Of a DNA stretch of 64,000 bases, positions 1,073-61,133 are shown piece by piece. Numbering within the stretch: position 1 is the stretch's first letter; each line of letters opens with the position of its first letter. Source of the stretch: Squalus acanthias (taxonomy: Eukaryota); contig CM059432.1 of NCBI GenBank assembly GCA_030390025.1, positions 46,316,001 through 46,380,000 on the forward strand, given 5' to 3'. The position numbers and the translations under genes were made by a program. The notes under the pieces were generated by a model that did not search any database, was not told where the DNA came from, and saw nothing but the letters and a program-made list of their open reading frames with translations.

Positions 1073-1320
1073 GCAGCTAATCAAAAGGCAGAATTCTCAC
1101 AGGCAGCAAACAAGGAAGTGAGTAAGCTCTTAAAATTCTCACTTTTTAAAATAGTTACAGAGAGCAAAACAAAGATTGGGACTCTCACATTGGGGAAAAG
1201 GCAAATTTGAAATAAAGATGAACAAACTTTAAAAAAAAATTAAAACTTTTTTTTGAAAAGTTTCTTAAAATTTGAATTTTTATTAAAATGGACAAATTTC
1301 ACACTGCACACTACTTTTAA

Positions 1321-1434
1321 GAAAAGCAAGCAAGTTCTCCATGGTGTCCTGGAAAATATTTACCCTTCAATCAACATCACTAAAACAGATTATCTGGTCA
1401 TTATCGCATTGCTGTTTATGGGACCTTGCTGTGC
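1321..1434 (+). mobile_element. Internal fragment of Deu-domain SINE (SacSINE1-like)
   Basis: ggtgtcctgg...tcaatcaacatcactaaaacagattatctggtcattatc...ttgctgtgca matches the copy at 51001-51423. Confidence 0.75.
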
Positions 1435-2299
1435 AGGGTAGAGCTTAGCTATATTGTCCTTTGCAGTTAAATAGTCTGGCAACACTAAATGTAGGAAAAA
1501 TGGACACTTGGGTGAGGTGCTAGAGGGCAATCGCTGCCTGTAGAACTGTACCTCTGCAGAACTGTACTCCTGCAAGAAGTCAAAGACTTCAGGGGAGTAG
1601 GAGGGGAGAAAATTGGCAGTAAAAGGTAAGGGAAGAAAGAAATGTTACAATAACTGTGGTAGAATGTGACAATTATCACTCTTCGACAATGTATTGTAAG
1701 AATATTGGTGGGGGGGAGGGGGGACAGTAGCAGAAGAGTATCTTGAAAGCGAAAGTTGGATTTCTGTTAATTTCGGCCCTAAATATTTTGAAAATCTGGT
1801 TGTATGTCATTGATTTGCCTACTGTGTTTGTCTATGGGATACAGTTGCACATACTAACAATCTTTCAATTTCTCACGCAAGTATCAGCCCAGGTTAATCA
1901 ACCATGGGAGCCATTAGAGTTGTGGCCGGGCCTGTCCTTAGGCAGCATCTACACATGTATACTTTCCAGCGACAATAACTAGATCAGGAGTGGAATGTTT
2001 GAGTGATCTTTTGCCCTCCCTAGCTTAAGGGGCCTGAGGCTAATTATAGCATCCTTACTACTGTCCCAGCTGAAGTCAGCTAACAGGAATTTAATATTTG
2101 TTCTTTTGAATATTATTCCACTGAAGTCAATGGAAGAGAAAATCATGTGGGGTGTAAAATGGCTGTCGATTCGTTATTGCTCGCTTTGCGTTACTGTCAA
2201 ATACCAATGTCACTCCCTGCCAGTTGAATTTAGCTACTGATATAAAGGAACTTTAGCAAGAACAATAATTACATGGATAGTTAAGGTGGGCAGGAAACC

Positions 2300-8352: not shown

Positions 8353-9332
8353 GTAAGGCTAATGTAATGCTGGCCTTTGTATCTATAGGACTAGAATACA
8401 AGGTGTTAGAAGTCATGCTACAGCTAAACAAAGCCCTGATTAGACCACATCTGGAGTACTGTGAGCAGTTCTGGGCACCACACCTTAGGAGGGATATATT
8501 GCCCTTGGAGAGATGGCAACGCTGATTTACTAGAATGATACCTGGACTCCAAGGGTTAAATTATGAGGAGAGACTACACAAAGTAGGGTTGTATTCCCTG
8601 GAATTTAGAAGATTAAAGGGTGATTTGATCGAAGCTTTCAAGATATTAATGGGAACTGATAGAGAGAAACTACTTCCACTGGTTGGGGAATCTAGGACTA
8701 GGGGACATAGCCTAAAAGTTAGAACGAGGAATTTCAGCAGTGAAGTTAGGAAACAGTTCTACATGCAAAGGGTGTTAGAAGTTTGGAACTGTCTCTGCAA
8801 ACAGCTGTTGATGTTGGGTGAATTGTTAATTTCAAATCTGAGTTTAATAGATTTCTGTTAATCAAAGGTATTAAGGGATATGGGGCAAAGGCAGATATAT
8901 GGAGTTAGGTCACAGATCAGCCATGATGTCATTGAATAGCGGAAGAAACTCGAGGGGCTAAATAGCCTACTCCTTTTCCTATGTTCCGATAATGAGATCT
9001 GCACATTCAGTAGATAAAGCAATCATGAACTCTTTAGCTGTCTAGGTTCTGGAATATTAAATGTGCCAGGGGAAACAACAGGAGCCCCAGCTGCCTGTTC
9101 CCAACATAGTTCAAAGGGACATGAAGGCCTTGAATTACAAAAGGAACTCAAGCAGGTGGAGAACACGGAAATACAGCAATTTTGCCAGAACTCTGACTTT
9201 TACACTGATCAAAGTTGATTTGGCTGCACCAGAGTAATAGGAAAGTGAGAAACAAGAATGAAAGAAATCCCTTCAAGAGAGAAACAGACAAAGTTTGAGA
9301 ACAAGCATCTGAACTGTGGTGGTATGGAGTAC

Positions 9333-12300
9333 TGGCCAAGGGAGGAATGTTGGCCATGGGAGGAATTTGGCCAAGGGAGGAATGTTGGCCAAGGGAGGAA
9401 TGTTGGCCAAGAGAGGAATGTTGGCCAAGGGAGCAACGTTGGCCAAGGGAGGAATGTTGGCCATGGGAGGAATGTTGGCCAAGAGAGGAATGTTGGCCAA
9501 GGGAGCAACGTTGGCCAAGGGAGGAATGTTGGCCAAGGGAGGAATGTTGGCCAAGGGAGGAATGTTGGCCAAGGGAGGAATGTTGGCCATGGGAGGAATG
9601 TTTGCCAAGGGAGGAATGTTGGCCAAGGGAGGAATGTTGGCCAATGGAGGAATGTTGGCCATGGGAGGAATGTTGGCCAAGGGAGGAATGTTGGCCAAGG
9701 GAGGAATGTTGGCCATGGGAGGAATGTTAGCCAATGGAGGAATGTTGGCCAAGGGAGCAATGTTGGCCAAGGGAGGAATGTTAGCCAAGGGAGGAATGTT
9801 GGTCATGGGAGGAATGTTGGCCAAGGGAGGAATGTTGGCCAATGGAGGAATGTTGGCCAAGGGAGGAATGTTGGCCAAGGGAGGAATGTTGGCCAAGGGA
9901 GGAATGTTGGCCAAGGGAGGAATGTTGGCCAAGGGAGGAATGTTGGCCAAGGGAGGAATGTTGGCCAAGGGAGGAATGTTGGCCAAGGGAGGAATGTTGG
10001 CCAAGGGAGGAATGTTGGCCAAGGGAGGAATGTTGGCCAAGGGAGGAATGTTGGCCAAGGGAGGAATGTTGGCCAAAGGAGGAATGTTGGCCAAGGGAGG
10101 AATGTTGGCCATGGGAGGAATGTTGGCCAAGGGAAGAATGTTGGCCAAGGGAGGAATGTTGGCCAAGGGAGGAATGTTGGCCAAGGGAAGAATGTTGGCC
10201 AAGGGAGGAATGTTGGCCAAGGGAGGAATATTGGCCAAGGGAGGAATGTTGGCCAAGGGAGGAATGTTGGCCAAGGGAAGAATGTTGGCCAAGGGAGGAA
10301 TGTTGGCCAAGGGAGGAATGTAGGCCAAGGGAGGAATGTTGGCCAAGAGAGGAATGTTGGCCAAGGGAAGAATGTTGGTCATGGGAGGAATGTTGGCCAA
10401 GGGAGGAATGTTGGCCAAGGGAGGAATGTTGGCCAAGGGAAGAATGTTGGTCATGGGAGGAATGTTAGCCAAGGGAGGAATGTTGGCCAAGGGAGGAATG
10501 TTAGCCAAGGGAAGAATGTTGGTCATGGGAGGAATGTTGGCCAAGGGAGGAATGTTGGCCAAGGGAAGAATGTTGGCCAAGGGAGGAATGTTGGCCAAGA
10601 GAGGAATGTTGGCCAAGGGAAGAATGTTGGCCATGGGAGGAATGTTGGCCAAGAGAGGAATGTTAGCCAAGGGAGGAATGTTGGCCAAGGGAGGAATGTT
10701 GGCCAAGGGAGGAATGTTGGCCAAGGGAGGAATGTTAGCCAAGGGAGGAATGTTGGCCAAGGGAGGAATGTTGGCCAAGGGAGGAATGTTGGCCAAGGGA
10801 AGAATGTTGGCCATGGGAGGAATGTTGGCCAAGAGAGGAATGTTAGCCAAGGGAGGAATGTTGGCCAAGGGAAGAATGTTGGCCAAGGGAGGAATGTTGG
10901 CCAAGGGAGGAATGTTGGCCATTGGAGGAATGTTGGCCAAGGGAGGAATGTTAGCCAAGGGAGGAATGTTGGCCAAGGGAAGAATGTTGGCCAAGGGAGG
11001 AATGTTGGCCAAGGGAGGAATGTTGGCCAAGGGAAGAATGTTGGTCATGGGAGGAATGTTGGCCAATGGAGGAATGTTGGCCATGGGAGGAATGTTAGCC
11101 AAGGGAGGAATGTTGGCCAAGGGAGGAATGTTGGCCAAGGGAGGAATGTTGGCCAAGGGAGGAATGTTGGCCAAGGGAAGAATGTTGGCCATGGGAGGAA
11201 TGTTGGCCAAGGGAGGAATGTTGGCCAAGGGAAGAATGTTGGCCATGGGAGGAATGTTGGCCAAGAGAGGAATGTTAGCCAAGGGAGGAATGTTGGCCAA
11301 GGGAAGAATGTTGGCCAAGGGAGGAATGTTGGCCAAGGGAGGAATGTTGGCCATTGGAGGAATGTTGGCCAAGGGAGGAATGTTAGCCAAGGGAGGAATG
11401 TTGGCCAAGGGAAGAATGTTGGCCAAGGGAGGAATGTTGGCCAAGGGAGGAATGTTGGCCAAGGGAGGAATGTTGGCCAAGGGAAGAATGTTGGTCATGG
11501 GAGGTATGTTGGCCAAGGGAGGAATGTTGGACAAGGGAGGAATGTTGGCCAAGGGAGGAATGTTGGCCAAGGGAAGAATGTTGGTCATGGGAGGAATGTT
11601 GGCCAAGGGAAGAATGTTGGCCAAGGGAGGAATGTTGGCCAAGGGAGCAACGTTGGCCAAGGGAGGAATGTTGGCCATGGGAGGAATGTTGGCCAAGGGA
11701 GGAATGTTGGCCAAGGGAAGAATGTTGGTCATGGGAGGAATGTTGGTCAAGGGAGGAATGTTGGCCAAGGGAGGAATGTTGGCCAAGGGAGGAATGTTGG
11801 CCATGGGAGGAATGTTGGCCAAGGGAGGAATGTTGGCCAAGGGAAGAATGTTGGTCATGGGAAGAATGTTGGCCATGGGAGGAATGTTGGCCAAGGGAGG
11901 AATGTTGGCCAAGGGAGGAATGTTGGCCAAGGGAGGAATGTTGGCCATGGGAGGAATGTTGGCCAAGGGAGGAATGTTGGCCAAGGGAGGAATGTTGGCC
12001 ATGGGAGGAATGTTGGCCAAGGGAGGAACGTTGGCCAAGGGAGGAATGTTGGCCAAGGGAGGAATGTTGGCCATGGGAGCAACGTTGGCCAAGGGAGGAA
12101 TGTTGGCCAAGGGAGGAATGTTGGCCAAGGGAGGAATGTTGGCCATGGGAGGAATGTTGGCCAAGGGAGGAATGTTGGCCAAGGGAGGAATGTTGGCCAT
12201 GGGAGCAACGTTGGCCAAGGGAGTAATGTTGGCCATGGGAGCAACGTTGGCCAAGGGAGGAATGTTGGCCAAGGGAGGAATGTTGGCCAAGGGAGCAACG

Positions 12301-15300
12301 TTGGCCAAGGGAGGAATGTTGGCCAAGGGAAGAATGTTGGTCATGGGAGGAACGTTGGCCAATGGAGGAATGTTGGCCAAGGGAGGAATGTTGGTCATGG
12401 GAAGAATGTTGGTCATGGGAGGAATGTTGGCCAATGGAGGAATGTTGGCCAAGGGAGGAATGTTGGCCAAGGGAAGAATGTTGGCCAAAGGAGGAATGTT
12501 GGCCAAGGGAGGAATGTTGGCCAAGGGAGGAATGTTGGCCATGGGAGGAATGTTGGCCAAGGGAGGAATGTTGGCCAAGAGAGGAATGTTGGCCAAGGGA
12601 GGAATGTTGGCCAAGGGAGGAATGTTGGCCATGGGAGGAATGTTAGCCAATGGAGGAATGTTGGCCATGGGAGGAATGTTGGCCAAAGGAGGAATGTTGG
12701 GCCAAGGGAGGAATGTTGGCCAAGGGAGGAATGTTGGCCAAGGGAGGAATGTTGGCCAAGGGAGGAATGTTGGCCAAGAGAGGAATGTTGGCCAAGGGAG
12801 GAATGTTGGCCAAGGGAGGAATGTTGGCGAAGGGAGGAATGTTGGCCAAGGGAGGAATGTTGGCCAAGAGAGGAATGTTGGCCAAGGGAAGAATGTTGGC
12901 CAAGGGAGGAATGTTGGCGAAGGGAGGAATGTTGGCCATGGGAGGAATGTTGGCCAAGGGAGGAATGTTGGCCAAGGGAAGAATGTTGGCCATGGGAGGA
13001 ATGTTGGCCAATGGAGGAATGTTGGCCAAGAGAGGAATGTTGGCCAATGGAGGAATGTTGGCCATGGGAGGAATGTTGGCCATGGGAGGAATGTTGGCCA
13101 TGGGAGGACTGTTGGCCAAGGGAGGAATGTTGGCCAAGAGAGGAATGTTGGCCAATGGAGGAATGTTGGCCATGGGAGGAATGTTGGCCAAAGGAGGAAT
13201 GTTGGGCCAAGGGAAGAATGTTGGCCATGGGAGGAATGTTGGCCAAGGGAGGAATGTTGGCCAAGGGAAGAATGTTGGCCATGGGAGGAATGTTGGCCAT
13301 GGGAGGAATGTTGGCCAAGGGAGGAATGTTGGCCATGGGAGGAATGTTGGCCAAGGGAGGAATGTTGGCCAAGAGAGGAATGTTGGCCAAGGGAGGAATG
13401 TTGGCCAAGGGAAGAATGTTGGCCAAGGGAGGAATGTTGGTGAAGGGAGGAATGTTGGCCATGGGAGGAATGTTGGCCAAGGGAGGAATGTTGGCCAAGG
13501 GAAGAATGTTGGCCATGGGAGGAATGTTGGCCAATGGAGGAATGTTGGCCAAGAGAGGAATGTTGGCCAATGGAGGAATGTTGGCCATGGGAGGAATGTT
13601 GGCCATGGGAGGAATGTTGGCCATGGGAGGACTGTTGGCCAAGGGAGGAATGTTGGCCAAGAGAGGAATGTTGGCCAATGGAGGAATGTTGGCCATGGGA
13701 GGAATGTTGGCCAAAGGAGGAATGTTGGGCCAAGGGAAGAATGTTGGCCATGGGAGGAATGTTGGCCAAGGGAGGAATGTTGGCCAAGGGAAGAATGTTG
13801 GCCATGGGAGGAATGTTGGCCATGGGAGGAATGTTGGCCAAGGGAGGAATGTTGGCCATGGGAGGAATGTTGGCCAAGGGAGGAATGTTGGCCAAGAGAG
13901 GAATGTTGGCCAAGGGAGGAATGTTGGCCAAGGGAAGAATGTTGGCCAAGGGAGGAATGTTGGTGAAGGGAGGAATGTTGGCCATGGGAGGAATGTTGGC
14001 CAAGGGAGGAATGTTGGCCAAGGGAAGAATGTTGGCCATGGGAGGAATGTTGGCCAATGGAGGAATGTTGGCCAAGAGAGGAATGTTGGCCAATGGAGGA
14101 ATGTTGGCCATGGGAGGAATGTTGGCCATGGGAGGAATGTTGGCCATGGGAGGAATGTTGGCCAAGGGAGGAATGTTGGCCAAGAGAGGAATGTTGGCCA
14201 ATGGAGGAATGTTGGCCATGGGAGGAATGTTGGCCAAAGGAGGAATGTTGGGCCAAGGGAAGAATGTTGGCCATGGGAGGAATGTTGGCCAAGGGAGGAA
14301 TGTTGGCCAAGGGAAGAATGTTGGCCATGGGAGGAATGTTGGCCATGGGAGGAATGTTGGCCAAGGGAGGAATGTTGGCCAAGGGAGGAATGTTGGCCAT
14401 GGGAGGAATGTTGGCCAAGGGAGGAATGTTGGCCATGGGAGCAACGTTGGCCAAGGGAGGAATGTTGGCCAAGGGAGGAATGTTGGCCAAGGGAGGAATG
14501 TTGGCCATGGGAGGAATGTTGGCCAAGGGAGGAATGTTGGCCAAGGGAGGAATGTTGGCCATGGGAGCAACGTTGGCCAAGGGAGTAATGTTGGCCATGG
14601 GAGCAACGTTGGCCAAGGGAGGAATGTTGGCCAAGGGAGGAATGTTGGCCAAGGGAGCAACGTTGGCCAAGGGAGGAATGTTGGCCAAGGGAAGAATGTT
14701 GGTCATGGGAGGAACGTTGGCCAATGGAGGAATGTTGGCCAAGGGAGGAATGTTGGTCATGGGAAGAATGTTGGTCATGGGAGGAATGTTGGCCAATGGA
14801 GGAATGTTGGCCAAGGGAGGAATGTTGGCCAAGGGAAGAATGTTGGCCAAAGGAGGAATGTTGGCCAAGGGAGGAATGTTGGCCAAGGGAGGAATGTTGG
14901 CCATGGGAGGAATGTTGGCCAAGGGAGGAATGTTGGCCAAGAGAGGAATGTTGGCCAAGGGAGGAATGTTGGCCAAGGGAGGAATGTTGGCCATGGGAGG
15001 AATGTTAGCCAATGGAGGAATGTTGGCCATGGGAGGAATGTTGGCCAAAGGAGGAATGTTGGGCCAAGGGAGGAATGTTGGCCAAGGGAGGAATGTTGGC
15101 CAAGGGAGGAATGTTGGCCAAGGGAGGAATGTTGGCCAAGAGAGGAATGTTGGCCAAGGGAGGAATGTTGGCCAAGGGAGGAATGTTGGCGAAGGGAGGA
15201 ATGTTGGCCAAGGGAGGAATGTTGGCCAAGAGAGGAATGTTGGCCAAGGGAAGAATGTTGGCCAAGGGAGGAACGTTGGCCAATGGAGGAATGTTGGCCA

Positions 15301-18300
15301 AGGGAGGAATGTTGGTCATGGGAAGAATGTTGGTCATGGGAGGAATGTTGGCCAATGGAGGAATGTTGGCCAAGGGAGGAATGTTGGCCAAGGGAAGAAT
15401 GTTGGCCAAAGGAGGAATGTTGGCCAAGGGAGGAATGTTGGCCAAGGGAGGAATGTTGGCCATGGGAGGAATGTTGGCCAAGGGAGGAATGTTGGCCAAG
15501 AGAGGAATGTTGGCCAAGGGAGGAATGTTGGCCAAGGGAGGAATGTTGGCCATGGGAGGAATGTTAGCCAATGGAGGAATGTTGGCCATGGGAGGAATGT
15601 TGGCCAAAGGAGGAATGTTGGGCCAAGGGAGGAATGTTGGCCAAGGGAGGAATGTTGGCCAAGGGAGGAATGTTGGCCAAGGGAGGAATGTTGGCCAAGA
15701 GAGGAATGTTGGCCAAGGGAGGAATGTTGGCCAAGGGAGGAATGTTGGCGAAGGGAGGAATGTTGGCCAAGGGAGGAATGTTGGCCAAGAGAGGAATGTT
15801 GGCCAAGGGAAGAATGTTGGCCAAGGGAGGAATGTTGGCGAAGGGAGGAATGTTGGCCATGGGAGGAATGTTGGCCAAGGGAGGAATGTTGGCCAAGGGA
15901 AGAATGTTGGCCATGGGAGGAATGTTGGCCAATGGAGGAATGTTGGCCAAGAGAGGAATGTTGGCCAATGGAGGAATGTTGGCCATGGGAGGAATGTTGG
16001 CCATGGGAGGAATGTTGGCCATGGGAGGACTGTTGGCCAAGGGAGGAATGTTGGCCAAGAGAGGAATGTTGGCCAATGGAGGAATGTTGGCCATGGGAGG
16101 AATGTTGGCCAAAGGAGGAATGTTGGGCCAAGGGAAGAATGTTGGCCATGGGAGGAATGTTGGCCAAGGGAGGAATGTTGGCCAAGGGAAGAATGTTGGC
16201 CATGGGAGGAATGTTGGCCATGGGAGGAAAGTTGGCCAAGGGAGGAATGTTGGCCATGGGAGGAATGTTGGCCAAGGGAGGAATGTTGGCCAAGAGAGGA
16301 ATGTTGGCCAAGGGAGGAATGTTGGCCAAGGGAAGAATGTTGGCCAAGGGAGGAATGTTGGTGAAGGGAGGAATGTTGGCCATGGGAGGAATGTTGGCCA
16401 AGGGAGGAATGTTGGCCAAGGGAAGAATGTTGGCCATGGGAGGAATGTTGGCCAATGGAGGAATGTTGGCCAAGAGAGGAATGTTGGCCAATGGAGGAAT
16501 GTTGGCCATGGGAGGAATGTTGGCCATGGGAGGAATGTTGGCCATGGGAGGACTGTTGGCCAAGGGAGGAATGTTGGCCAAGAGAGGAATGTTGGCCAAT
16601 GGAGGAATGTTGGCCATGGGAGGAATGTTGGCCAAAGGAGGAATGTTGGGCCAAGGGAAGAATGTTGGCCATGGGAGGAATGTTGGCCAAGGGAGGAATG
16701 TTGGCCAAGGGAAGAATGTTGGCCAAGGGAGGAATGTTGGTCATGGGAAGAATGTTGGTCATGGGAGGAATGTTGGCCAATGGAGGAATGTTGGCCAAGG
16801 GAGGAATGTTGGCCAAGGGAAGAATGTTGGCCAAAGGAGGAATGTTGGCCAAGGGAGGAATGTTGGCCAAGGGAGGAATGTTGGCCATGGGAGGAATGTT
16901 GGCCAAGGGAGGAATGTTGGCCAAGTGAGGAATGTTGGCCAAGGGAGGAATGTTGGCCAAGGGAGGAATGTTGGCCATGGGAGGAATGTTAGCCAATGGA
17001 GGAATGTTGGCCATGGGAGGAATGTTGGCCAAAGGAGGAATGTTGGGCCAAGGGAGGAATGTTGGCCAAGGGAGGAATGTTGGCCAAGGGAGGAATGTTG
17101 GCCAAGGGAGGAATGTTGGCCAAGAGAGGAATGTTGGCCAAGGGAGGAATGTTGGCCAAGGGAGGAATGTTGGCCAAGGGAGGAATGTTGGCCAAGGGAG
17201 GAATGTTGGCCAAGAGAGGAATGTTGGCCAAGGGAAGAATGTTGGCCAAGGGAGGAATGTTGGCGAAGGGAGGAATGTTGGCCATGGGAGGAATGTTGGC
17301 CAAGGGAGGAATGTTGGCCAAGGGAAGAATGTTGGCCATGGGAGGAATGTTGGCCAATGGAGGAATGTTGGCCAAGAGAGGAATGTTGGCCAATGGAGGA
17401 ATGTTGGCCATGGGAGGAATGTTGGCCATGGGAGGAATGTTGGCCATGGGAGGACTGTTGGCCAAGGGAGGAATGTTGGCCAAGAGAGGAATGTTGGCCA
17501 ATGGAGGAATGTTGGCCATGGGAGGAATGTTGGCCAAAGGAGGAATGTTGGGCCAAGGGAAGAATGTTGGCCATGGGAGGAATGTTGGCCAAGGGAGGAA
17601 TGTTGGCCAAGGGAAGAATGTTGGCCATGGGAGGAATGTTGGCCATGGGAGGAATGTTGGCCAAGGGAGGAATGTTGGCCATGGGAGGAATGTTGGCCAA
17701 GGGAGGAATGTTGGCCAAGAGAGGAATGTTGGCCAAGGGAGGAATGTTGGCCAAGGGAAGAATGTTGGCCAAGGGAGGAATGTTGGTGAAGGGAGGAATG
17801 TTGGCCATGGGAGGAATGTTGGCCAAGGGAGGAATGTTGGCCAAGGGAAGAATGTTGGCCATGGGAGGAATGTTGGCCAATGGAGGAATGTTGGCCAAGA
17901 GAGGAATGTTGGCCAATGGAGGAATGTTGGCCATGGGAGGAATGTTGGCCATGGGAGGAATGTTGGCCATGGGAGGACTGTTGGCCAAGGGAGGAATGTT
18001 GGCCAAGAGAGGAATGTTGGCCAATGGAGGAATGTTGGCCATGGGAGGAATGTTGGCCAAAGGAGGAATGTTGGGCCAAGGGAAGAATGTTGGCCATGGG
18101 AGGAATGTTGGCCAAGGGAGGAATGTTGGCCAAGGGAAGAATGTTGGCCATGGGAGGAATGTTGGCCATGGGAGGAATGTTGGCCAAGGGAGGAATGTTG
18201 GCCATGGGAGGAATGTTGGCCAAGGGAGGAATGTTGGCCAAGAGAGGAATGTTGGCCAAGGGAGGAATGTTGGCCAAGGGAAGAATGTTGGCCAAGGGAG

Positions 18301-21300
18301 GAATGTTGGTGAAGGGAGGAATGTTGGCCATGGGAGGAATGTTGGCCAAGGGAGGAATGTTGGCCAAGGGAAGAATGTTGGCCATGGGAGGAATGTTGGC
18401 CAATGGAGGAATGTTGGCCAAGAGAGGAATGTTGGCCAATGGAGGAATGTTGGCCATGGGAGGAATGTTGGCCATGGGAGGAATGTTGGCCATGGGAGGA
18501 ATGTTGGCCAAGGGAGGAATGTTGGCCAAGAGAGGAATGTTGGCCAATGGAGGAATGTTGGCCATGGGAGGAATGTTGGCCAAAGGAGGAATGTTGGGCC
18601 AAGGGAAGAATGTTGGCCATGGGAGGAATGTTGGCCAAGGGAGGAATGTTGGCCAAGGGAAGAATGTTGGCCATGGGAGGAATGTTGGCCATGGGAGGAA
18701 TGTTGGCCAAGGGAGGAATGTTGGCCAAGGGAGGAATGTTGGCCATGGGAGGAATGTTGGCCAAGGGAGGAATGTTGGCCATGGGAGCAACGTTGGCCAA
18801 GGGAGGAATGTTGGCCAAGGGAGGAATGTTGGCCAAGGGAGGAATGTTGGCCATGGGAGGAATGTTGGCCAAGGGAGGAATGTTGGCCAAGGGAGGAATG
18901 TTGGCCATGGGAGCAACGTTGGCCAAGGGAGTAATGTTGGCCATGGGAGCAACGTTGGCCAAGGGAGGAATGTTGGCCAAGGGAGGAATGTTGGCCAAGG
19001 GAGCAACGTTGGCCAAGGGAGGAATGTTGGCCAAGGGAAGAATGTTGGTCATGGGAGGAACGTTGGCCAATGGAGGAATGTTGGCCAAGGGAGGAATGTT
19101 GGTCATGGGAAGAATGTTGGTCATGGGAGGAATGTTGGCCAATGGAGGAATGTTGGCCAAGGGAGGAATGTTGGCCAAGGGAAGAATGTTGGCCAAAGGA
19201 GGAATGTTGGCCAAGGGAGGAATGTTGGCCAAGGGAGGAATGTTGGCCATGGGAGGAATGTTGGCCAAGGGAGGAATGTTGGCCAAGAGAGGAATGTTGG
19301 CCAAGGGAGGAATGTTGGCCAAGGGAGGAATGTTGGCCATGGGAGGAATGTTAGCCAATGGAGGAATGTTGGCCATGGGAGGAATGTTGGCCAAAGGAGG
19401 AATGTTGGGCCAAGGGAGGAATGTTGGCCAAGGGAGGAATGTTGGCCAAGGGAGGAATGTTGGCCAAGGGAGGAATGTTGGCCAAGAGAGGAATGTTGGC
19501 CAAGGGAGGAATGTTGGCCAAGGGAGGAATGTTGGCGAAGGGAGGAATGTTGGCCAAGGGAGGAATGTTGGCCAAGAGAGGAATGTTGGCCAAGGGAAGA
19601 ATGTTGGCCAAGGGAGGAATGTTGGCGAAGGGAGGAATGTTGGCCATGGGAGGAATGTTGGCCAAGGGAGGAATGTTGGCCAAGGGAAGAATGTTGGCCA
19701 TGGGAGGAATGTTGGCCAATGGAGGAATGTTGGCCAAGAGAGGAATGTTGGCCAATGGAGGAATGTTGGCCATGGGAGGAATGTTGGCCATGGGAGGAAT
19801 GTTGGCCATGGGAGGACTGTTGGCCAAGGGAGGAATGTTGGCCAAGAGAGGAATGTTGGCCAATGGAGGAATGTTGGCCATGGGAGGAATGTTGGCCAAA
19901 GGAGGAATGTTGGGCCAAGGGAAGAATGTTGGCCATGGGAGGAATGTTGGCCAAGGGAGGAATGTTGGCCAAGGGAAGAATGTTGGCCATGGGAGGAATG
20001 TTGGCCATGGGAGGAATGTTGGCCAAGGGAGGAATGTTGGCCATGGGAGGAATGTTGGCCAAGGGAGGAATGTTGGCCAAGAGAGGAATGTTGGCCATGG
20101 GAGGAATGTTGGCCAAGGGAAGAATGTTGGCCAAGGGAGGAATGTTGGTGAAGGGAGAAATGTTGGCCATGGGAGGAATGTTGGCCAAGGGAGGAATGTT
20201 GGCCAAGGGAAGAATGTTGGCCATGGGAGGAATGTTGGCCAATGGAGGAATGTTGGCCAAGAGAGGAATGTTGGCCAATGGAGGAATGTTGGCCATGGGA
20301 GGAATGTTGGCCATGGGAGGAATGTTGGCCATGGGAGGACTGTTGGCCAAGGGAGGAATGTTGGCCAAGAGAGGAATGTTGGCCAATGGAGGAATGTTGG
20401 CCATGGGAGGAATGTTGGCCAAAGGAGGAATGTTGGGCCAAGGGAAGAATGTTGGCCATGGGAGGAATGTTGGCCAAGGGAGGAATGTTGGCCAAGGGAA
20501 GAATGTTGGCCATGGGAGGAATGTTGGCCATGGGAGGAATGTTGGCCAAGGGAGGAATGTTGGCCATGGGAGGAATGTTGGCCAAGGGAGGAATGTTGGC
20601 CAAGAGAGGAATGTTGGCCAAGGGAGGAATGTTGGCCAAGGGAAGAATGTTGGCCAAGGGAGGAATGTTGGTGAAGGGAGGAATGTTGGCCATGGGAGGA
20701 ATGTTGGCCAAGGGAGGAATGTTGGCCAAGGGAAGAATGTTGGCCATGGGAGGAATGTTGGCCAATGGAGGAATGTTGGCCAAGAGAGGAATGTTGGCCA
20801 ATGGAGGAATGTTGGCCATGGGAGGAATGTTGGCCATGGGAGGAATGTTGGCCATGGGAGGAATGTTGGCCAAGGGAGGAATGTTGGCCAAGAGAGGAAT
20901 GTTGGCCAATGGAGGAATGTTGGCCATGGGAGGAATGTTGGCCAAAGGAGGAATGTTGGGCCAAGGGAAGAATGTTGGCCATGGGAGGAATGTTGGCCAA
21001 GGGAGGAATGTTGGCCAAGGGAAGAATGTTGGCCATGGGAGGAATGTTGGCCATGGGAGGAATGTTGGCCAAGGGAGGAATGTTGGCCATGGGAGGAATG
21101 TTGGCCAAGGGAGGAATGTTGGCCAAGAGAGGAATGTTGGCCAAGGGAGGAATGTTGGCCAAGAGAGGAATGTTGGCCAAGGGAACAATGTTGGCCAAGG
21201 GAGGAATTTTGGCCATGGGAGGAATGTTGGCCAAGGAAGGAATGTTGTCCAAGGGAGGAATGTTGGCCAAGGGAAGAATGTTGGCCATGGGAGGAATGTT

Positions 21301-21612
21301 GGCCAAGGGAGGAATGTTGGCCAAGGGAGGAATGTTGGCCAAGGGAGGAATGTTGGCCAAGGGAAGAATGTTGGCCATGGGAGGAATGTTGGCCAATGGA
21401 GGAATGTTGGCAATGGGAGGAATGTTGGCCATGGGAGGAATGTTGGCCATGGGAAGAATGTTGGCGAAGGGAGGAATGTTGGCCAATGGAGGAATGTTTG
21501 CCAAGGGAGGAATGTTTGACATGGGAGGAATGTTGGCCAAGGGAGGAATGTTGGCCAAGGGAGGAATGTTGGCCATGGGAGGAATGTTGGCCATTGGAGG
21601 AATGTTGGTGAA
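9333..21612. repeat. 12.3-kb tandem satellite, 18-bp unit TGGCCAAGGGAGGAATGT (~680 copies) with higher-order repeats
   Basis: Directly visible; recurrent variants (CCATGGG, GGAAGAA, AAGAGAG, GAGCAACG) and sixteen 19-bp (+G) units. Confidence 0.99.
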
Positions 21613-21860
21613 GTCACTGGGGGAACTCCCCTGCTCTTCTTCAAGTAGTGCCATGAGATTTTTTACTTTCAGCTGAAAGAACAGACAGGGCCTCAGGTTA
21701 GCATCTCATCTGAAAGACAGCACCTTCAACAGTGCAGCACTCCCTTAGTACTGCACTGAAGTATTGGCCTAAATTATGTGCTCAAGTCTCTGGAGTGTGG
21801 TTTGAATCCATGACCTTCTGACTCAGGTGAGTATGCTACCACTGAGTCAAAGCTGACACC
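21613..21860 (-). mobile_element. 5' half of Deu-domain SINE (tRNA head at right), contiguous with the satellite
   Basis: cactgggggaactcccctgctcttcttc...cagtgcagcactcccttagtactgcactg...gctaccactgagtcaaagctgacacc is collinear with 60293-60537. Confidence 0.9.
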
Positions 21861-21865
21861 TTAAA

Positions 21866-21900
21866 TGGATAGATAGATAGATTGATAGATAGATGGATGG
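21866..21900. repeat. (GATA)n/(GATG)n microsatellite
   Basis: ggatagatagatagattgatagatagatggatgg. Confidence 0.9.
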
Positions 21901-23077
21901 AGGGACATAGATATTCTCTTAGACTTTCAACCCCCTGCCCCGCCAAGTTCTAGTGGATCTAGGGCGGGTGGAAGTAGAAAGATGCTTAGGGATACGGTCT
22001 GTCATATCTTCGACTATATGCATCTCCTACGCCCTTTCTGGAGGGCTGGTCCCAAGAGGGCAGAATATGCCTAATCATTTGTGGGCAAGTATAAGTTAAA
22101 GGTATATAAATGTTTTCTGCCAATAGCACTGTTTGAATGCTGGATACAAGGCCATCTCTTTGGCCCAGGCACCCAACATTCCATACTTGGTGGAAGGAAA
22201 TATAAAATTCTCCATTCAGCCATGGAAAGTATTCATGGAATGCTACCTTGCATAGGCCCAAGAGGGGAGTCTGACTTTTTTTTACAAAACAGAATTTTGC
22301 ATGCAGTATGTAGACTGTCTTCATTCATCTCTGCAGCAGGCCCCCAAGGCTTGCCATGTCAGAACTCCCCTCTTTTTTCAACAGTGGCCAGGAAGCCCAC
22401 CTCTAATAATATAACCATCCTGAGGCTGGAAAGTCTGCTGGGACAGGGGGCACCTCTGTGGTGTGACGTCCCACTCCCTATAGAAGGTCTTCAATCAAGG
22501 TGGACATGGAAAGCATAGGCCATACAGTTTGGAAAGGGTTCGTGATTTAAGTGTAATTCCTCTGCATTAACAGGTTTCCCTAACCTCAGAAATACCACAC
22601 GAGGATAGACTTTTACCATATCCTATACTATTTTTCCATTTATTTTATTCTTGATAAATATCTGGTTAATTTCTTTATTGAGGTGAGACAGTTTGAACAA
22701 ATGATAGAAGGAATCAGTTGTAAGGGGGCGTGTCTCAGACGGTGCTGGTGCGAGGTTTGGCCTTCGTTGCCTATACTATTGCTTGCTCTGGTCTCCGGCC
22801 AGCCTTTTTGCAATAAGCACCTGTGAGTGGTTCGACCCACTCGCCCTTACGGTTCTAACACTGGACTTAGGTGCAGGGAGCAGTAATGCAGAGAAAACTT
22901 CAAATAGACCCGGTTGAATAGCACGAAATGGAAATCTTTATTGCATGGCGTCTAAAATCATGAAATACATGTCATAGGCGCAAATCAAAGATAGTACAAG
23001 TATACATACATTCATAAAGCTTGGTCTATGGAAATGGACAAAAATGAGAAGTCGCACAACACCAGGTTATAGTCCAA

Positions 23078-23970
23078 GGGGTAGAAATTAGGTCGCGCCC
23101 CATTTGGGGCGCAAATATCGTCCGGACGCAAATATTAGCGCCTGGCGCTAATTATCGGCACTGACAGGAAACTTCACTTTTACCGCCCCGGGAGGTGAGT
23201 GGAGCGCTAAAGCAGGCGCTGCACACCTCTCTTAAGGCGCAAAGGCCGAGCAGTGAGGCGCTAACTCGGAGTGCTGGCGAAGCTCATGTAATGTCAGTCA
23301 GCAATGGAACACACACACAATGGCACGGGCCAGTTCTTAAAGGGGATGGTTAATCTTGCTTTCCATCCACATCCTGTTCATTGCAGCCTTGAATCTCGGC
23401 CTGGAGAGACTTGCACATCAAATGTGCTGGAAAGAACAATGGAGAGTACCAGGCAAAGAGCTCAGAGTGCAGCTCCCACAGTCTCTGCTAAATCGATACA
23501 AGGAATGGCAAATCAAAATGAACCTGCAAAGTGCTGCTCAGTACCCAAAACTCCTTCACACAACGTTGAATCTCTCCAGAAGTCTCTCCCTCTCTCTCTC
23601 AGAATGCGTAGTTGAAAAATGCCACCAACAATAAAAGACAGGAAGAGGCCCCCTTTAAATAGCGCCCCCCCCAGCCCCACAGCGATTGATAGCGTTCCAG
23701 TCTTCTGGTCGTTGGAAGCGCCAGGCGGTAAGGCAGGGGGCGCCATTCAATTTCCACTACGGGGCGCCACAAGGGCGTTGCACCATGGAATGACGTCACA
23801 ATCTGCGCGCGCAGGTGGTCGCAGCGGTAAGTTTTAGCGCCGCCGCACAATCTCAAGTTAAGTTCTCGAGCGGCGCAAACATCGCTGCGCCCGGGCGTTA
23901 GCGGCTTTGCGCCCCATTAGCGCCCTCTTAAGGCGCTAACGGGAAGCGCAACCAAGTGAATTTTTACCCC
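23078..23970. mobile_element. Harbinger-type non-autonomous element/MITE (893 bp)
   Basis: TIR ggggtagaaatt / aatttttacccc; flanks CAA / TAA; GC-rich subterminal gcgc repeats. Confidence 0.8.
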
Positions 23971-24051
23971 TAAGAGTTTTTTTGAAATCACAAGCTTTTG
24001 GAGCTATCGATCGCCCCTTCCTCAGGTGAAGTAAAGAGATACAGATTCTGT

Positions 24052-24092
24052 ATCCTGAGGAAGGGGCGATCGATAGCTCCGAAAGCTTGTGA
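24052..24092 (+). ncRNA. Minimal hammerhead ribozyme motif (second PLE family)
   Basis: CTGAGGA-a-ggggc[gatcgata]gctcc-GAAA-GCTT-gtga; palindromic AGCT stem III; mirror copy on the minus strand at ~23986-24029 has GAAA>AAAA. Confidence 0.6.
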
Positions 24093-28966: not shown

Positions 28967-29194
28967 ATAAGTGGACCAAGCATTTTATTTAACTATAAAA
29001 AGCTTCCCAGCTCAGTGCTGGGAAAACATTGTTGTAAAACTTCTGAGAGGCAGAACACTGTTTAGGCTTACAACCTTCATTCTTCTTTGTTCCACTCCTC
29101 CCAAAAGTATTACCAGATATCAGCCTTCTCAACATATATCCTAGCCCCTTCTGCTAGTTCGTCACTCTGCTCCCTCTCCCTCAAGCTTTCTAGG

Positions 29195-29520
29195 AGTCAG
29201 CCATGGCTCAGTGGTAGCACTCTTGCCTCTGAGTCAGAAGATTGTAAGGTTCAAGCCCCTAATACAGAGACTTGAGCACATAATCTAACTTGACACTACT
29301 TCAGTGCTGAGGGATTGCAGCACTGCCAGAGATACTATCTTTCAGATGAGATGTTAAACTGAGGCCCTATTAGGCGGATATAAAAGATCCCATGACATGA
29401 TCCGTAGAAGAGCATGGCAATCTCTTGGGGTCCTGGCCAACATTTATCCCTCATCCAACACCACCAAAGACAGATTATCTGGCTCATTTATCTCACTGCT
29501 CTTTGTGGGACCTTGTGTAT
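29195..29520 (+). mobile_element. Deu-domain SINE, 3'-truncated
   Basis: tRNA-like head tggctcagtggtagc...ggttcaagccc; body matches 51001-51340. Confidence 0.85.
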
Positions 29521-30947: not shown

Positions 30948-31407
30948 TAAAAATAGAACATGCTGGAAATGTACAGCAAGTCTGTCATCATCTGTAAAGA
31001 AAGACTTGCATTTATATAACGCCTTTCATGACCACCGGACGTCCCAAAGTGCTTTACAGCCAATTAAGTACTTTTTTTAACTGTAGTCACTGTTGTAATG
31101 TAGGAAATGCAGTAGCCAAATTGCACACAGCAAGCTCCCACAAACAGCAATGTGAGAATGACCAGATAATCTGTTTTAGTGATGTTGATTGAGGGATAAA
31201 TATTGGCCAGGACACTGGGGGTAACTCCCCTGCTCTTCTTCGAAATAGTGCCATGGGATCTTTTACGTCCACTTGAGTTTCACATCCCATCCGAAAGACG
31301 GCACCTCCGACAGTGCAGCACTCGCTCAGTACTGCACTGGAGTGTCAGCCTGGAGTAAAGAGAATAGATAGATTAATGCTTTGCTTATAGACTCTTCATC
31401 AGAACTG
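30948..31407 (-). mobile_element. Old PLE terminal remnant split by a Deu SINE (31001-31354, minus)
   Basis: atgctggaaat..cagcaagtctgtcatcatctg | SINE | ..ctcttcatcagaactg; TSD gtaaaga at 30994-31000 and 31355-31361. Confidence 0.7.
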
Positions 31408-34769: not shown

Positions 34770-35266
34770 GCGAAGAGGGGAAACTGACGGTGGAGAAGAG
34801 GGGAAACTGACGGTGGAGAAGAGGGGAAACCGAGGGTGGGGTAAGAAGGGAAACCGAGGGTGGGGAAGAGGGGAGATCGAGGCCGGGGAAGAGAGGAGAT
34901 CGAGGGTGGGGAAGAGGGGAGATCGAGGGTGGGGAAGAGGGGAGATCGAGGGTGGGGAAGAGGGGAGATCGAGGGTGGGGAAGAGGGGAGATCGAGGGTG
35001 GGGAAGAGGGGAGATCGAGGGTGGGGAAGAGGGGAGATCGAGGGTGGGGAAGAGGGGAGATCGAGGGTGGGGAAGAGGGGAGATCGAGGGTGGGGAAGAG
35101 GGGAGATCGAGGCCGGGGAAGAGGGGAGATCGAGGGTGGGGAAGAGGGGAGATCGAGGCCGGGGAAGAGGGGAGATCGAGGCCGGGGAAGAGGGGAGATC
35201 GAGGGTGGGGAAGAGGGGAGATCGAGGGTGGGGAAGAGGGGAGATCGAGGCTGGGGAAGAGGGGAA
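34770..35266. repeat. G-rich minisatellite, 23-bp unit GAGGGTGGGGAAGAGGGGAGATC (~21 copies)
   Basis: Directly visible; variants GAGGCCGGGG and degenerate left-hand units. Confidence 0.95.
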
Positions 35267-35336
35267 TCTGAAGGTGGGGGAGCGATTCTCAGAGGGGAAA
35301 CCAGAGGTGGGAGGAAATTTGATTCCACCAGTAAAG

Positions 35337-35561
35337 AAGAAAGACTTGCATTTATATAGCGCCTTTCACGACCACCGGGCATCTCAAAGCACTTTACAGC
35401 CAATGAAGTACATTTTGAAGTGGAGTCACTGTTGTAATGTAGGAAATGCAGCAGCCAATTTGTGCACAGCAAGGTCCCACAAACAGCAATGCAAGAATGA
35501 CCAGATAATCTGTTTTGTTATGTTGGTTGAGGGATAAATATTGGCCAGGACACTGGGGATA
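35337..35561 (-). mobile_element. Deu-domain SINE 3' half
   Basis: aagaaagacttgcatttatatagcgcc...gagggataaatattggccaggacactgggga. Confidence 0.9.
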
Positions 35562-35990
35562 ACAAATGATAACTCAGCGAAATTGCACTGATGTCTAATA
35601 GTAAAGTGGTAACACTCAAATTCCCCTCAAAACCAACAGTAATACAACAACTCAGTATATTTAACTAGTAGTAATAGATGTAATGCCCCGATATCCTACC
35701 TGTAACTAGTAGTAATCCTACAACCCACTGATATTCACCCTGAAACCGTAGCAAGGTGGGGTCAGGCACCCCAGTTGGCCACATTTAACAGGCCCAATCT
35801 CTCTCCCTATCACCTTCGTCTCTGGTTTGGGCTCCGGTTCTGTGTGAAGATGACAACACTGAACTGGGAACCTCAGTCAGAGCTGATCTGTACGATAGCA
35901 AAATGCTGCGGATGCTGGAAATCCGAAATAACAACAGAAAACGCTGGAAAAACTCAGCAGGCCAGGCAGCATCCGTGGAGAGAGAAACAG

Positions 35991-40424: not shown

Positions 40425-40654
40425 ATGTGGAGATGCCGGCGTTGGACTGGGGTGGACAAAAATGAGAAGTCGCACAACACCAGGTTATAGTCCAACAGAT
40501 TTATTTAAAATTACAAGCTTTCAGAGCTGTCGCCCCTTCCTCAGGTAGAGTTACTGTCAGAGTAACTCTACCTGAGGAAGGGGCGACAACTCAGAAAGCT
40601 TGTAATTTTAAATAAATCTGTTGGACTATAACCTGGTGTTGTGCGACTTCTCAT
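40425..40654. mobile_element. Fold-back PLE-derived element: ~97-bp inverted arms, 5-nt loop
   Basis: 40460-40556 vs 40562-40656 are reverse-complementary with 2 mismatches; flanked by ttatgttcttatg duplication; same family as 23039-24178. Confidence 0.9.
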
Positions 40655-50100: not shown

Positions 50101-51000
50101 CAGCTTGATTAGGGATGGCATAAAATGCAAGCTGTCGTGATGTCATATTGGACTCATCCATGGTTTGTGGGGGTGTTATAGGAATGAATCATTATGTGGT
50201 TAACAGGTTAAATAAATAATGGAATTGAATTCCAAAGACTGAAACTGAATAACAGTAATGGACTGTGTGTGTACTGCCCCTTCCAATTGAGGATAGTCTG
50301 GATGATTAACGAACTAGACCTTTGGTCTTGTCCTTCAGTTGTTCGGCCCGTGCTCAGTTTGGCAGACAGTATGCAGGCATGTCCATTAGTGTTTAAATAA
50401 TTGCTGCCCAACAAAATAAAGCATTGCTCCTGATAGGAGCCACAGAATTGAAATTAAAAACTATCATTCATACCAGTGAAATATCACTTAAAGTGTGAAT
50501 GTTTTCTTGTAAGATGCTCTTTTAAGACAAATCTCCTTTGTGAAATACAGTGCTCCTGGTGATATCAGCACCCTATCTAATGCACATGTAAGGTCATTTT
50601 GATCATGTATTTGAAAGAAAGGTCCTTAAAGTCAAAGCACTAGCAGAAGGATCACAATGCAGCAGTAGACTACTAATATGTAGAATTAATTCATCTCTGG
50701 CACCATAAACATTTCCCAGCAATAATCATGGCTCTTTTATGGTGCATACTGTGCCTCATTCTCTAAGGCGTGAGCTTGCCCATAACCCTCCATAAGAAGG
50801 CAACATATCTTATTTATTCATGGGGCTGTGTGTCATATTTTCATTCAAATTCAAAGCAAGGCAAATTTGGGTCTGTTTGGATTTTTCCTGTTTCTCCTCA
50901 AATTCAAACTTGAATAATATGCATAACCCACTGCGGTAAGAATAGCCTCCGATTTTTTGATCACATGGCTTGGGTCTCGAAGAACTGAAGCTATATTTTA

Positions 51001-51423
51001 GGTGTCAGCTGTGGCTCAGTTGGTAGCACTCTCACCTCTGAGTCAGAAGGTTGTGGGTTCAAGTCCCACTCCGGAGATAAAAATCTAGGCTAACGCTCCA
51101 GTGCAGTGCTGAGGGAGCGCTGCACTGTCAGAGGTGCTGTCTTTTGGATGAGATGTTAAACCGAGACCCTGTCTGGTCTCTCAGGTGGATGTAAAAGATC
51201 CCACGGCACTATTTTGAGGAAGAGCGGGGGAGTTACCCCCGGTGTCCTGGCCAAGATTTTTCCCTCAATCAACATCACTAAAAAAACAGATTATCTGGTA
51301 ATTATCACATTGCTGTTTGTAGGACCTTGCTGTGTGCAAATTGGCTGCCGCGTTTCCTAATTTACAACAGTGACTACACTTCAAAAGTATTTCATTGGCT
51401 GTAAAGCGCTGTGGGACATCCTG
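51001..51423 (+). mobile_element. Near full-length Deu-domain SINE (SacSINE1-like)
   Basis: A box tggctcagttgg, B box ggttcaagtcc, Deu-type core ...aaattggctgccgcgtttcc...cagtgactacacttcaaaagt... Confidence 0.9.
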
Positions 51424-51686
51424 TGTTCGTGATTGCATGTCTTTCCTTCTTTTAACTGAAGTTGGGGATGGTAAGAAGCTAGTAAAAATAGCCCTAACTA
51501 GACAGTCACTTGTGACATTGCACACAGAGAGTCAGGACCATGTGTCATATTCAGGTCAAGTAGTGTCAGAACCTGGGGATATTTGGACCAAAACATGCTG
51601 ATGCAATTCAGTATCCATTTTAAAGACAAGCATTCTGTCCTTATTTTTATATTTCCATTCTGAATTCTTATGTCCACATTTAAGAT

Positions 51687-54746: not shown

Positions 54747-54789
54747 TAGAGGTTTGGTGGAAACCACATTTATGTGCTACAAACTCTGT

Positions 54790-59734: not shown

Positions 59735-61133
59735 ATGATCCTGATATTTACGGGGAGGCAGGGAGGGAGTGGGGGGAAGTGCGTTTGTGGGGGGGATTCA
59801 CGGAAATCCCGAGAGCGCCGAGGTCCTGCCGAATTTAATGACAGGACCTCATTTTCATTTTTTTGACCCCGTTATCTTTTCGACAGCCGGGCAGATTGAC
59901 GGGCTTTTCTACACAGGCTATCGGGCGCGAAAGCCACTGGTAGAAGGCCGCAGCCGGGGACCGTTGGGGACGGTCCCCAGAATCCGGGAAAGATCAGAGG
60001 TTGGTGGGGGGAGAAAGATTGTCAATCTGGAGGGAGGGGGGTCCGGGAGAGATCGCGAGGCGGAAGACAAAGATAAAGAAAGACTTGCATTTTATATAGC
60101 GCCTTTCACGACCACCGGATGTCCCAAAGTGCTTTGCAGCCAATTAAGTACTATTTTTGAAGTGTAGTCACTGTTGTAACGTAGGAAACACGGCAGCCAA
60201 TTTGTGCATAGCAAGCTCCCACAAACAGCAATGTGATAATGGCCAGATAATCTGTTTTAGTGATGTTGATTGAGGGATAAATATTGGCTAGGACACCGGG
60301 GATAACTCCCCTGCTCTTCTTCAAAATAGTGCCATGGGATCTTTTACGTCCTCCTGAGAGAGCAGATGGGGCCTTGGTTTAACGTCTCATCCGAAAGACG
60401 GCACCTCTGACAGTGCAGTACTCCCTCAGTACTGCACTGGAGTGTCAGCCTAGATTTTTGTGCTCAAGTCTCTGGAGCAGGACTTGAACCCACAACCTTC
60501 TGAGGCAAGGGTGCTACCAACTGAGCCATGGCTGACTCATAGAAGGGGGGGAGGTGAACTGGAAATCGGGAGAGAGAGATCACAGGGCAGAGGGTGGGGA
60601 GGGGGGGGGGGGGGGGGGGGGGTCAGACCAGCAATCGGACGTAGGGAGAACTGGGAGAGTTCTTGGGACAGAAGGACCAGGATTGTGGGCTTGGCGGGGT
60701 GGTGGGGAGGGGTGAGTGGGAGGTCGGCCGATCGCAGCAGAAGATTTGCTTGAAGGGAGGGGATATAGCTCTCCTGCTCCTCCTGGCTCACAAGCAGTGT
60801 TATTAAAAAGCACTTACCTGCTTGATCCGGCTGCTCCCGTCTCCAGTTAGCTGCTGGGTTTCCCAAGCCCTGGGAAATCTGGCCGGCAACCATTACATTT
60901 AAATCAGGCTCCCAACTGCACTGTGGGAGTCTGATTTAAATATTATAATAAGGTGTCCCGCCTCTCTAGAGCAGAGCACAGACACGCCACGCAACCAGCC
61001 ACCGTAAAAATGGCGTCAGGCACGTACGCAGTGGGTCGGGGCCACCATAAGCGATTCTTTTTTTATTTTTTACGCTTCCCCCCCCTCTACCCGACCCTCT
61101 TCCACCCGTTGTGGTGATGTTAGAATTCCCCCC
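59735..61133. mobile_element. GC-rich Harbinger-type non-autonomous element containing a SINE
   Basis: Right end agaattccccccc, degenerate left end, GC-rich subtermini; boundaries approximate. Confidence 0.45.
60073..60537 (-). mobile_element. Full-length Deu-domain SINE
   Basis: Tail aaagaaagacttgcatttt...; head ggacttgaacccacaaccttctga...gctaccaactgagccatggctgac. Confidence 0.92.

What the first reader, a model, noticed from the sequence alone, without database searches (positions are those of the whole stretch)
9333..21860. A 12.3-kb satellite apparently born from an internal segment of a SINE
Seen: the last units (...ggaggaatgttggtgaag) run with no gap into tcactgggggaactcccctgctcttcttc..., the minus strand of a Deu-domain SINE. 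In other copies in this window, the sequence at exactly that position is gagggataaatattggccaggacac(t/c)gggg (31191-31220, 35529-35558, 60271-60301). The monomer agggaggaatgttggcca aligns to the SINE's agggataaatattggcca. Inference: an ~18-bp piece of this SINE copy was duplicated in place and amplified about 680-fold, so the birth site of the satellite is preserved. The SINE's 3' half is not clearly recognisable left of the array.
Basis: partly seen in the sequence, partly recalled or inferred. Interest (0 to 1): 0.8.

Follow-up and report, generated by a model that had tools for sequence, protein, structure and literature searches.

The report
SINE-seeded 12-kb minisatellite
A 12.3-kb run of 681 copies of an 18-base unit joins, in exact register, onto the surviving half of a short jumping element (a SINE) whose sister copies match the unit at that spot, so the array likely grew out of that element in place, which is a clear example of an already described way for tandem repeats to be born.

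Summary
Confirmed. The array (9339-21611, 681 units of 18 bp, 95.7% identical to consensus) runs without a gap into the head half of a tRNA-headed SINE (21612-21861, minus strand). The unit matches the in-register segment of five of six window SINE copies at 14-16 of 18 bases; 0 of 200,000 shuffles reach 15. One contig from a public run bridges the junction at single-copy depth. The SINE's tail half is missing: the left flank shows only a weak colinear trace (p about 0.01-0.025). The centre is built from exact multi-unit blocks of up to 135 units; the ends hold 17 of 20 one-off variants. Likely history: an 18-bp duplication inside this SINE copy, expansion by unequal exchange, loss of the tail side. 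This is a known kind: SINE-derived satellites of squamates typically keep one SINE end (PMC10702118), and Alu-derived minisatellites are common. The scan noted a similar case before (33-bp unit, same genome; unchecked). I found no paper on shark cases.

The parts
9339..21611 (+). Tandem array, 681 units of an 18-bp monomer (664 of 18 bp, 16 of 19 bp, 1 of 17 bp), G-rich on the + strand
12056..21090 (+). Central zone built from exact multi-unit blocks (main lags 29, 131 and 241 units; longest exact pair 135 units, about 2.4 kb, at 12831 and 17177)
   Evidence: longest repeat in 20 shuffled unit orders was 6-10 units; right limit approximate
9324..9338 (+). Likely a degenerate, shortened first unit (15 bp; 13 of 15 bases agree with a common internal variant by eye)
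   Evidence: sequence; inference
21594..21611 (+). Terminal unit, four differences from the consensus, occupying the position of the homologous 18-bp SINE segment
21612..21861 (-). Surviving 5' half of the SINE copy (tRNA-like head with A and B boxes at about 21790-21861, then body); 78-85% identical to four other window copies
   Evidence: (E 4.4e-58)
9140..9326 (-). Left flank with a weak colinear trace of the SINE's missing 3' half (about 63% identity with many gaps; best in 9282-9326); not established
   Evidence: 3 of 400; best of four copies 24 and 37 of 1500; no hit
29188..29520 (+). Reference SINE copy closest to the monomer (16/18), with a 6-base direct repeat at exactly 18-bp spacing around the segment; shares three single-base indels with the array-adjacent copy
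60070..60540 (-). Near full-length reference SINE copy (about 470 bp)
50996..51450 (+). Near full-length reference SINE copy
30995..31354 (-). 5'-truncated reference SINE copy
35335..35563 (-). 5'-truncated reference SINE copy
1309..1440 (+). SINE fragment, segment matches the monomer at only 11/18

Best explanation
The 18-bp unit matches an internal segment of a tRNA-headed SINE and the array joins that SINE's surviving head half in exact register, so the array is likely a single-locus minisatellite that arose by a short tandem duplication inside this SINE copy, likely grew by unequal exchange of multi-unit blocks, and likely lost the SINE's tail half by a later deletion. Shown: the identity, the register, the block structure, the missing tail. 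Inferred step 1: misalignment between two short direct repeats that lie 18 bp apart in this SINE lineage set the period, with the strand switch falling just past the repeat. Inferred step 2: point variants arose in single units and were then copied in blocks of 29 to more than 100 units, so the centre is young and the ends are old. Inferred step 3: a deletion or exchange at the left edge removed most of the 3' half. No function is needed; it behaves like a neutral, probably length-variable tandem repeat.
For: Consensus unit versus in-register segment: 16, 15, 15, 15, 14 and 11 of 18 in six copies; 0 of 200,000 shuffles reach 15. All 4 close matches outside the array are that segment. The array-adjacent copy groups with the best-matching copy at 9 sites including three single-base indels, against 7 and 3 for the other groupings, and loose-end consensus letters in the runs show two of these features, so that lineage is abundant. 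That copy has a 6-base repeat at lag 18 around the segment (627 of 100,000 shuffles). A 103-base contig of run X1 bridges the junction with 52 and 41 bases on the two sides, 2 other letters, depth 11 against 9.92 for the unique flank. Exact blocks of up to 135 units against 6-10 in shuffles; 17 of 20 one-off variants lie in the end zones. One-sided retention of the SINE and alternating subvariants are the published norm (PMC10702118).
Against: The tail half is not clearly present: nhmmer finds nothing in 9000-9400 (a weak test, it also missed the monomers in that stretch), and the anchored trace is about 63% identical with 35 internal gap columns while the right half is 78-85% identical, which one copy of one age does not readily explain. 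The terminal unit matches the SINE less well (8-12/18) than the consensus does. No window copy carries the two adjacent G bases of the monomer. Simple slippage at the 6-base repeat would give a unit ending differently from the one seen, and exact repeats of 6 or more bases at lags 8-40 occur 1-4 times in each of six copies, so the seed is only suggestive. The 9-versus-7 grouping margin is small. X1 may be the assembly's own sample; no bridging contig was among the 8 pieces listed for each of X5, X6 and X9 (37,109 pieces not shown).
Confidence: 0.8

Rival explanations
1. The monomer is SINE-derived but was born in another copy; ectopic recombination or conversion through the shared 18-bp homology joined that array, with its own left flank, to this SINE's head half.
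For: Explains in one step the missing tail half, the unrelated-looking left flank and the poorer match of the terminal unit. The SINE is very abundant in the runs (summed depth up to about 190,000 times the unique flank in X1; not a copy number).
Against: The weak colinear trace on the left lies on the expected diagonal. One-sided loss is normal in published cases (PMC10702118). No note of this scan on this genome shared words with the array.
Confidence: 0.11
2. A SINE subfamily already carried a short internal duplication of this segment and spread it by retrotransposition; this copy is simply the one that expanded furthest.
For: Pre-existing repeats spread by transposition are described for LTR12 (PMC3389668).
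Against: None of the six other window copies has the segment duplicated.
Confidence: 0.05
3. The junction or much of the length is an assembly artefact (misjoin, or duplicated blocks inflated by the assembler).
For: Exact block pairs of up to 2.4 kb are also what an over-expanded assembly would give; no long read was seen.
Against: A separately assembled contig bridges the junction at single-copy depth; array-type contigs reach 130-260 times the unique-flank depth in X1 and X5, two samples of two studies. The monomer-SINE match would stand even with a misjoin. Length alone stays unverified: my calibration spans 3-2,870 per genome copy depending on the contig length cut-off.
Confidence: 0.03
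4. An unrelated G-rich minisatellite lies next to a truncated SINE by chance.
For: Both are common in this repeat-rich window (a second G-rich array at 34772-35279 also lies near a SINE).
Against: 0 of 200,000 shuffles reach 15/18 in register; 1 of 2,000 reaches 16 even unanchored.
Confidence: 0.01

Closest known systems
SINE-derived satellites (sSat1-3) of squamate reptiles, Vassetzky, Kosushkin and Ryskov 2023, PMC10702118 (read: parts 1-4 of 5 of the main text; supplements not opened)
   Same: Tandem unit is an internal part of a tRNA-related SINE; one end of the array continues into the SINE up to its terminus and the other end is usually absent; hundreds of units per locus (320, nearly 950, over 1,200 reported); long loci about 94% homogeneous with alternating locus-specific subvariants.
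   Different: Units there are about 70-290 nt, here 18 bp; those are often multi-locus families with subtelomeric bias, here only one locus is seen and it lies at least 3.2 Mb from the end of its piece (positions); different SINE family and animal group.
Alu- and other TE-derived minisatellites of the human genome, Ahmed and Liang 2012, PMC3389668 (read: passages), citing Jurka and Gentles 2006 and Haber and Louis 1998 (seen only as cited there)
   Same: Minisatellite-sized units copied from inside a retroposon after insertion; initiation at short direct repeats of 5-20 bp proposed for some.
   Different: Most of the unexplained human cases have only two units by the passage read; this one has 681. 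The direct-repeat model fits here only loosely.
[quoted passage not shown] 1998), seen only as a table row and reference in the review PMC9659126 (read: passages)
   Same: Short G-rich unit expanded from within a SINE.
   Different: Six-base unit and a multi-locus family.
SacSINE1 and related Deu-domain SINEs of cartilaginous fishes, Luchetti et al. 2017, PMC5499810 (read: part 2 of 6; no supplement available) and PMC4824008 (passages; supplement part 1 of 4)
   Same: tRNA-like head, body, about 460-470 bp, very abundant, old copies.
   Different: No reference sequence came from a tool, so the assignment of the window's SINE to this family is recalled, not tested; the parts read mention no derived tandem arrays.

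Membership tests
SINE-derived satellite (sSat, PMC10702118) | Repeat unit corresponds to a part of a SINE, shorter than the SINE | tested here: met
   14-16/18 in five of six copies, in register
SINE-derived satellite (sSat, PMC10702118) | One terminal unit continues into the SINE up to its terminus | tested here: met
   21612-21861 runs to the SINE's 5' end
SINE-derived satellite (sSat, PMC10702118) | At least four middle monomers, high homogeneity, locus-specific subvariants in patterns | tested here: met
   681 units, 95.7% identity, block structure
SINE-derived satellite (sSat, PMC10702118) | Unit length about 70-290 nt (observed range, not a stated criterion) | tested here: not met
   18 bp; so it works like an sSat but is minisatellite-sized and is not a member of the squamate families
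SINE-derived satellite (sSat, PMC10702118) | Several loci per genome, subtelomeric bias | not testable with these tools
   No genome held; depth calibration uninformative
TE-derived minisatellite initiated at short direct repeats (as described in PMC3389668) | 5-20-bp direct repeats bracketing the unit in the parent element | tested here: inconclusive
   6-base repeat at lag 18 in 1 of 5 copies that hold the segment (627 of 100,000 shuffles), but the unit's end does not fall inside it
SacSINE1 / DeuSINE | tRNA-derived head with A and B boxes | tested here: met
   Box-like motifs visible in four heads (box consensus recalled); ARAGORN and Rfam call nothing
SacSINE1 / DeuSINE | Central Deu domain | not testable with these tools
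   No reference sequence in the paper parts seen
SacSINE1 / DeuSINE | 3' tail shared with an L2 LINE | not tested
   No partner LINE compared
Protein-coding tandem repeat | One frame kept open through the array | tested here: not met
   All six frames of the consensus lack stops, but 17 off-length units shift the frame and no ORF spans the array; the only Pfam hit of the longest + frame is a low-complexity glutenin repeat

The most novel reading that the evidence does not exclude
The surviving SINE head points into the array, and that strand has no run of four T from the head (21861) to 9142, so a still-working Pol III promoter would make a 12.7-kb satellite RNA from its own expanded interior, with a built-in 18-bp period making this segment a recurrent birth site in this SINE lineage. 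Against: the G that three other heads have at the start of the B box is A here, the copy is about 20% diverged from its sisters, the RNA would be the C-rich strand, and no RNA run was examined.
Probability: 0.05. Interest if true: 0.6.

Novelty: new member of a known kind. Interest (0 to 1): 0.3.

Why it matters
The parent sequence of a long tandem array can rarely be read off. Here the parent segment, the register and the order of later block duplications are all visible, so the locus could be dated and its allele lengths followed once relatives' assemblies are compared. It would extend SINE-derived satellites beyond squamates, a question PMC10702118 leaves open, and shows that a unit of only 18 bp can reach 12 kb. 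It reveals no new mechanism or function.

Tried and rejected
No whole genome was held, so no census of other arrays or SINE subfamilies. Scans of metagenome contigs and prokaryote genome contigs for SINE or monomer patterns gave 0 matches each; these collections are not expected to hold the host, so this is no evidence. Runs X6 and X9, labelled as other organisms, carry contigs with 0 other letters over 151, 151 and 270 bases of the unique flank, so they did not serve as diverged relatives; 4 of 20 listed runs were laid, on the right junction only. Read pile-ups gave no listed variant letters between 21596 and 21652 (9 rows not shown), so the subfamily with the exact monomer was not tested. 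Depth as copy number was rejected after calibration. A target-site duplication search gave only one 7-base match at 9057, not distinguishable from chance. Coding role rejected. Rfam and ARAGORN found nothing. Literature: searches listed no paper on a SINE-derived array in cartilaginous fishes and none holding the monomer letters; the library lacks most subscription papers, and repeat databases and unread supplements may hold it. Look-ups in earlier findings by place, sequence and words showed nothing on this array.

Full report
Observation. TRF reports one array at 9333-21608, period 18, 681.2 copies. Parsing gives 681 units from 9339 to 21611 in 42 variants; 664 are 18 bp with mean identity 95.7% to the consensus, 16 are 19 bp and one is 17 bp. 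The + strand is strongly G-skewed (about 0.59). The last unit is followed at once by 250 bases that match six other dispersed copies in the window. On the minus strand these begin with a tRNA-like head with A- and B-box-like motifs (box consensus recalled), so the element is a SINE whose head lies at 21861 and points into the array. Full-length copies are about 470 bp. Its assignment to SacSINE1/DeuSINE of cartilaginous fishes is recalled and fits the description in PMC5499810 (part 2 of 6 read), but no reference sequence was available.

Is the unit SINE-derived? The register is fixed by the SINE side: the 12 bases after the last unit match the bases after the homologous segment at 10, 9, 9, 8, 6 and 5 of 12 in the six copies, without a gap. 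In that register the consensus unit matches the segment at 16 (29-kb copy), 15, 15, 15, 14 and 11 of 18. Of 200,000 shuffles of the unit none reached 15 against the best of six copies; with any rotation, strand and position in four copies, 1 of 2,000 reached 16. The 17-base core has 684 matches in the window at up to three mismatches against 0.52 expected; the four outside the array are all this SINE segment. Against a too simple picture: the terminal unit matches the copies at only 8-12 of 18, and no window copy has the two adjacent G bases of the unit. The array-adjacent copy groups with the 29-kb copy at 9 sites, three of them single-base indels, against 7 and 3 for the alternatives; loose-end consensus letters in the laid runs show two of these features. 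So the nearest relative in the window is also the best match, though the margin is small.

What set the period? The 29-kb copy has an exact 6-base direct repeat at lag 18 around the segment; 627 of 100,000 shuffles of that 48-base region do as well. Such repeats at some lag between 8 and 40 occur 1-4 times in each of six copies, and plain slippage inside this repeat would give a unit with a different last three bases, so the switch must have fallen just past it. I treat this as a plausible seed, not a shown one. Initiation at 5-20-bp direct repeats is one of the models discussed for TE-derived minisatellites (PMC3389668, passages).

The missing half. About 200 bp of SINE should lie left of the array. 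A profile of the six copies finds nothing in 9000-9400 at E up to 100; it also missed the monomers in that stretch, so this is a weak negative. Anchored alignment of the 70 bases next to the array scores 27 against a null of 13.0 plus or minus 4.1, reached by 3 of 400 random window positions. Over 230 bases the best of four copies is reached by 24 of 1,500 window positions and 37 of 1,500 dinucleotide shuffles; per copy the counts are 15, 15, 219, 6 and 12, 34, 297, 13. The trace is on the expected diagonal but is about 63% identical with many gaps, whereas the right half is 78-85% identical to other copies. I count it as suggestive only. Retrotransposition truncates 5' ends (established knowledge), so a copy with an intact head and no tail was cut after insertion.

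How it grew. Written as a string of unit types, the array has autocorrelation peaks at 241, 29 and 131 units and exact repeated blocks of up to 135 units (about 2.4 kb); in 20 shuffles of unit order the longest was 6-10. Nine of the ten 50-unit bins from 12038 to 21053 are 94-100% covered by exact repeats of 18 or more units and one is 50% covered; the first three bins are 0% and the last 6%. The ends hold 17 of the 20 variants that occur once. This is the pattern expected from recent unequal exchange in the centre with older, sheltered ends (inference). The array is not coding: no frame spans it and the one Pfam hit is a low-complexity repeat.

Independent data. Twenty runs from 14 studies were listed for 21540-24500; five hold half of the words or more, all one organism, two samples. 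Four were laid on 21560-23000. In X1 a 103-base contig spans 21560-21652 with 2 other letters and no gap at depth 11, against 9.92 for a unique-flank contig, so it bridges the junction at single-copy depth; X1 may be the source sample. No bridging piece was among those listed for X5, X6 and X9, but 37,109 pieces were not shown. Array-type contigs sum to 1,961 (X1) and 4,984 (X5) in the first bin, about 200 and 260 times the unique flank, so many copies of the unit exist in both samples. A simulation from this array alone gives 3 to 2,870 depending on the contig length cut-off, so these figures neither confirm the length nor show whether other loci exist.

Comparison with what is known. PMC10702118 (parts 1-4 of 5 read) describes SINE-derived satellites in 56 squamate genomes: most have a longer terminal unit at one end that continues to the SINE's terminus, loci reach 320 to over 1,200 units, long loci are about 94% homogeneous and subvariants alternate. 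The present array has this architecture, with a much shorter unit. PMC3389668 attributes at least 7,276 human minisatellites and satellites to TEs, and the review PMC9659126 lists a mouse VNTR family from SINE B1 (passages). Seven literature searches listed no paper on such arrays in cartilaginous fishes.

Verdict. It is a new member of a known kind. The boldest open reading is Pol III read-through from the head, since the strand has no four-T run for 12.7 kb, but the B box is mutated and no RNA was examined (0.05). Interest 0.3.

Noticed in passing
window 34772-35279: A second G-rich tandem array (23-bp unit, 22 copies, 94% matches) with drifting variants at both ends, ending about 55 bp from the tail of the SINE copy at 35335; its source was not identified.
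   Followed up: no
window 21861 to 9142, minus strand: No run of four T from the SINE head through the whole array; the B box of this head has A where three other heads have G.
   Followed up: partly
window 23035-24181 and 40422-40660: A palindromic, MITE-like element; the first copy is split by a GC-rich insertion of about 900 bp (23078-23976). A 43-base piece is identical among three places.
   Followed up: no
window 44653-46749 and 52301-54776: Two copies (87% alike) of a LINE with reverse transcriptase and endonuclease remnants; may be the LINE family described in other notes on this genome.
   Followed up: no
window 22467: Runs X1 and X5 read A where the window and X6 read C, a likely polymorphism in the unique right flank that could tag array alleles.
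   Followed up: no
window 21870-21900: A short GATA-type microsatellite lies directly outside the SINE head.
   Followed up: no
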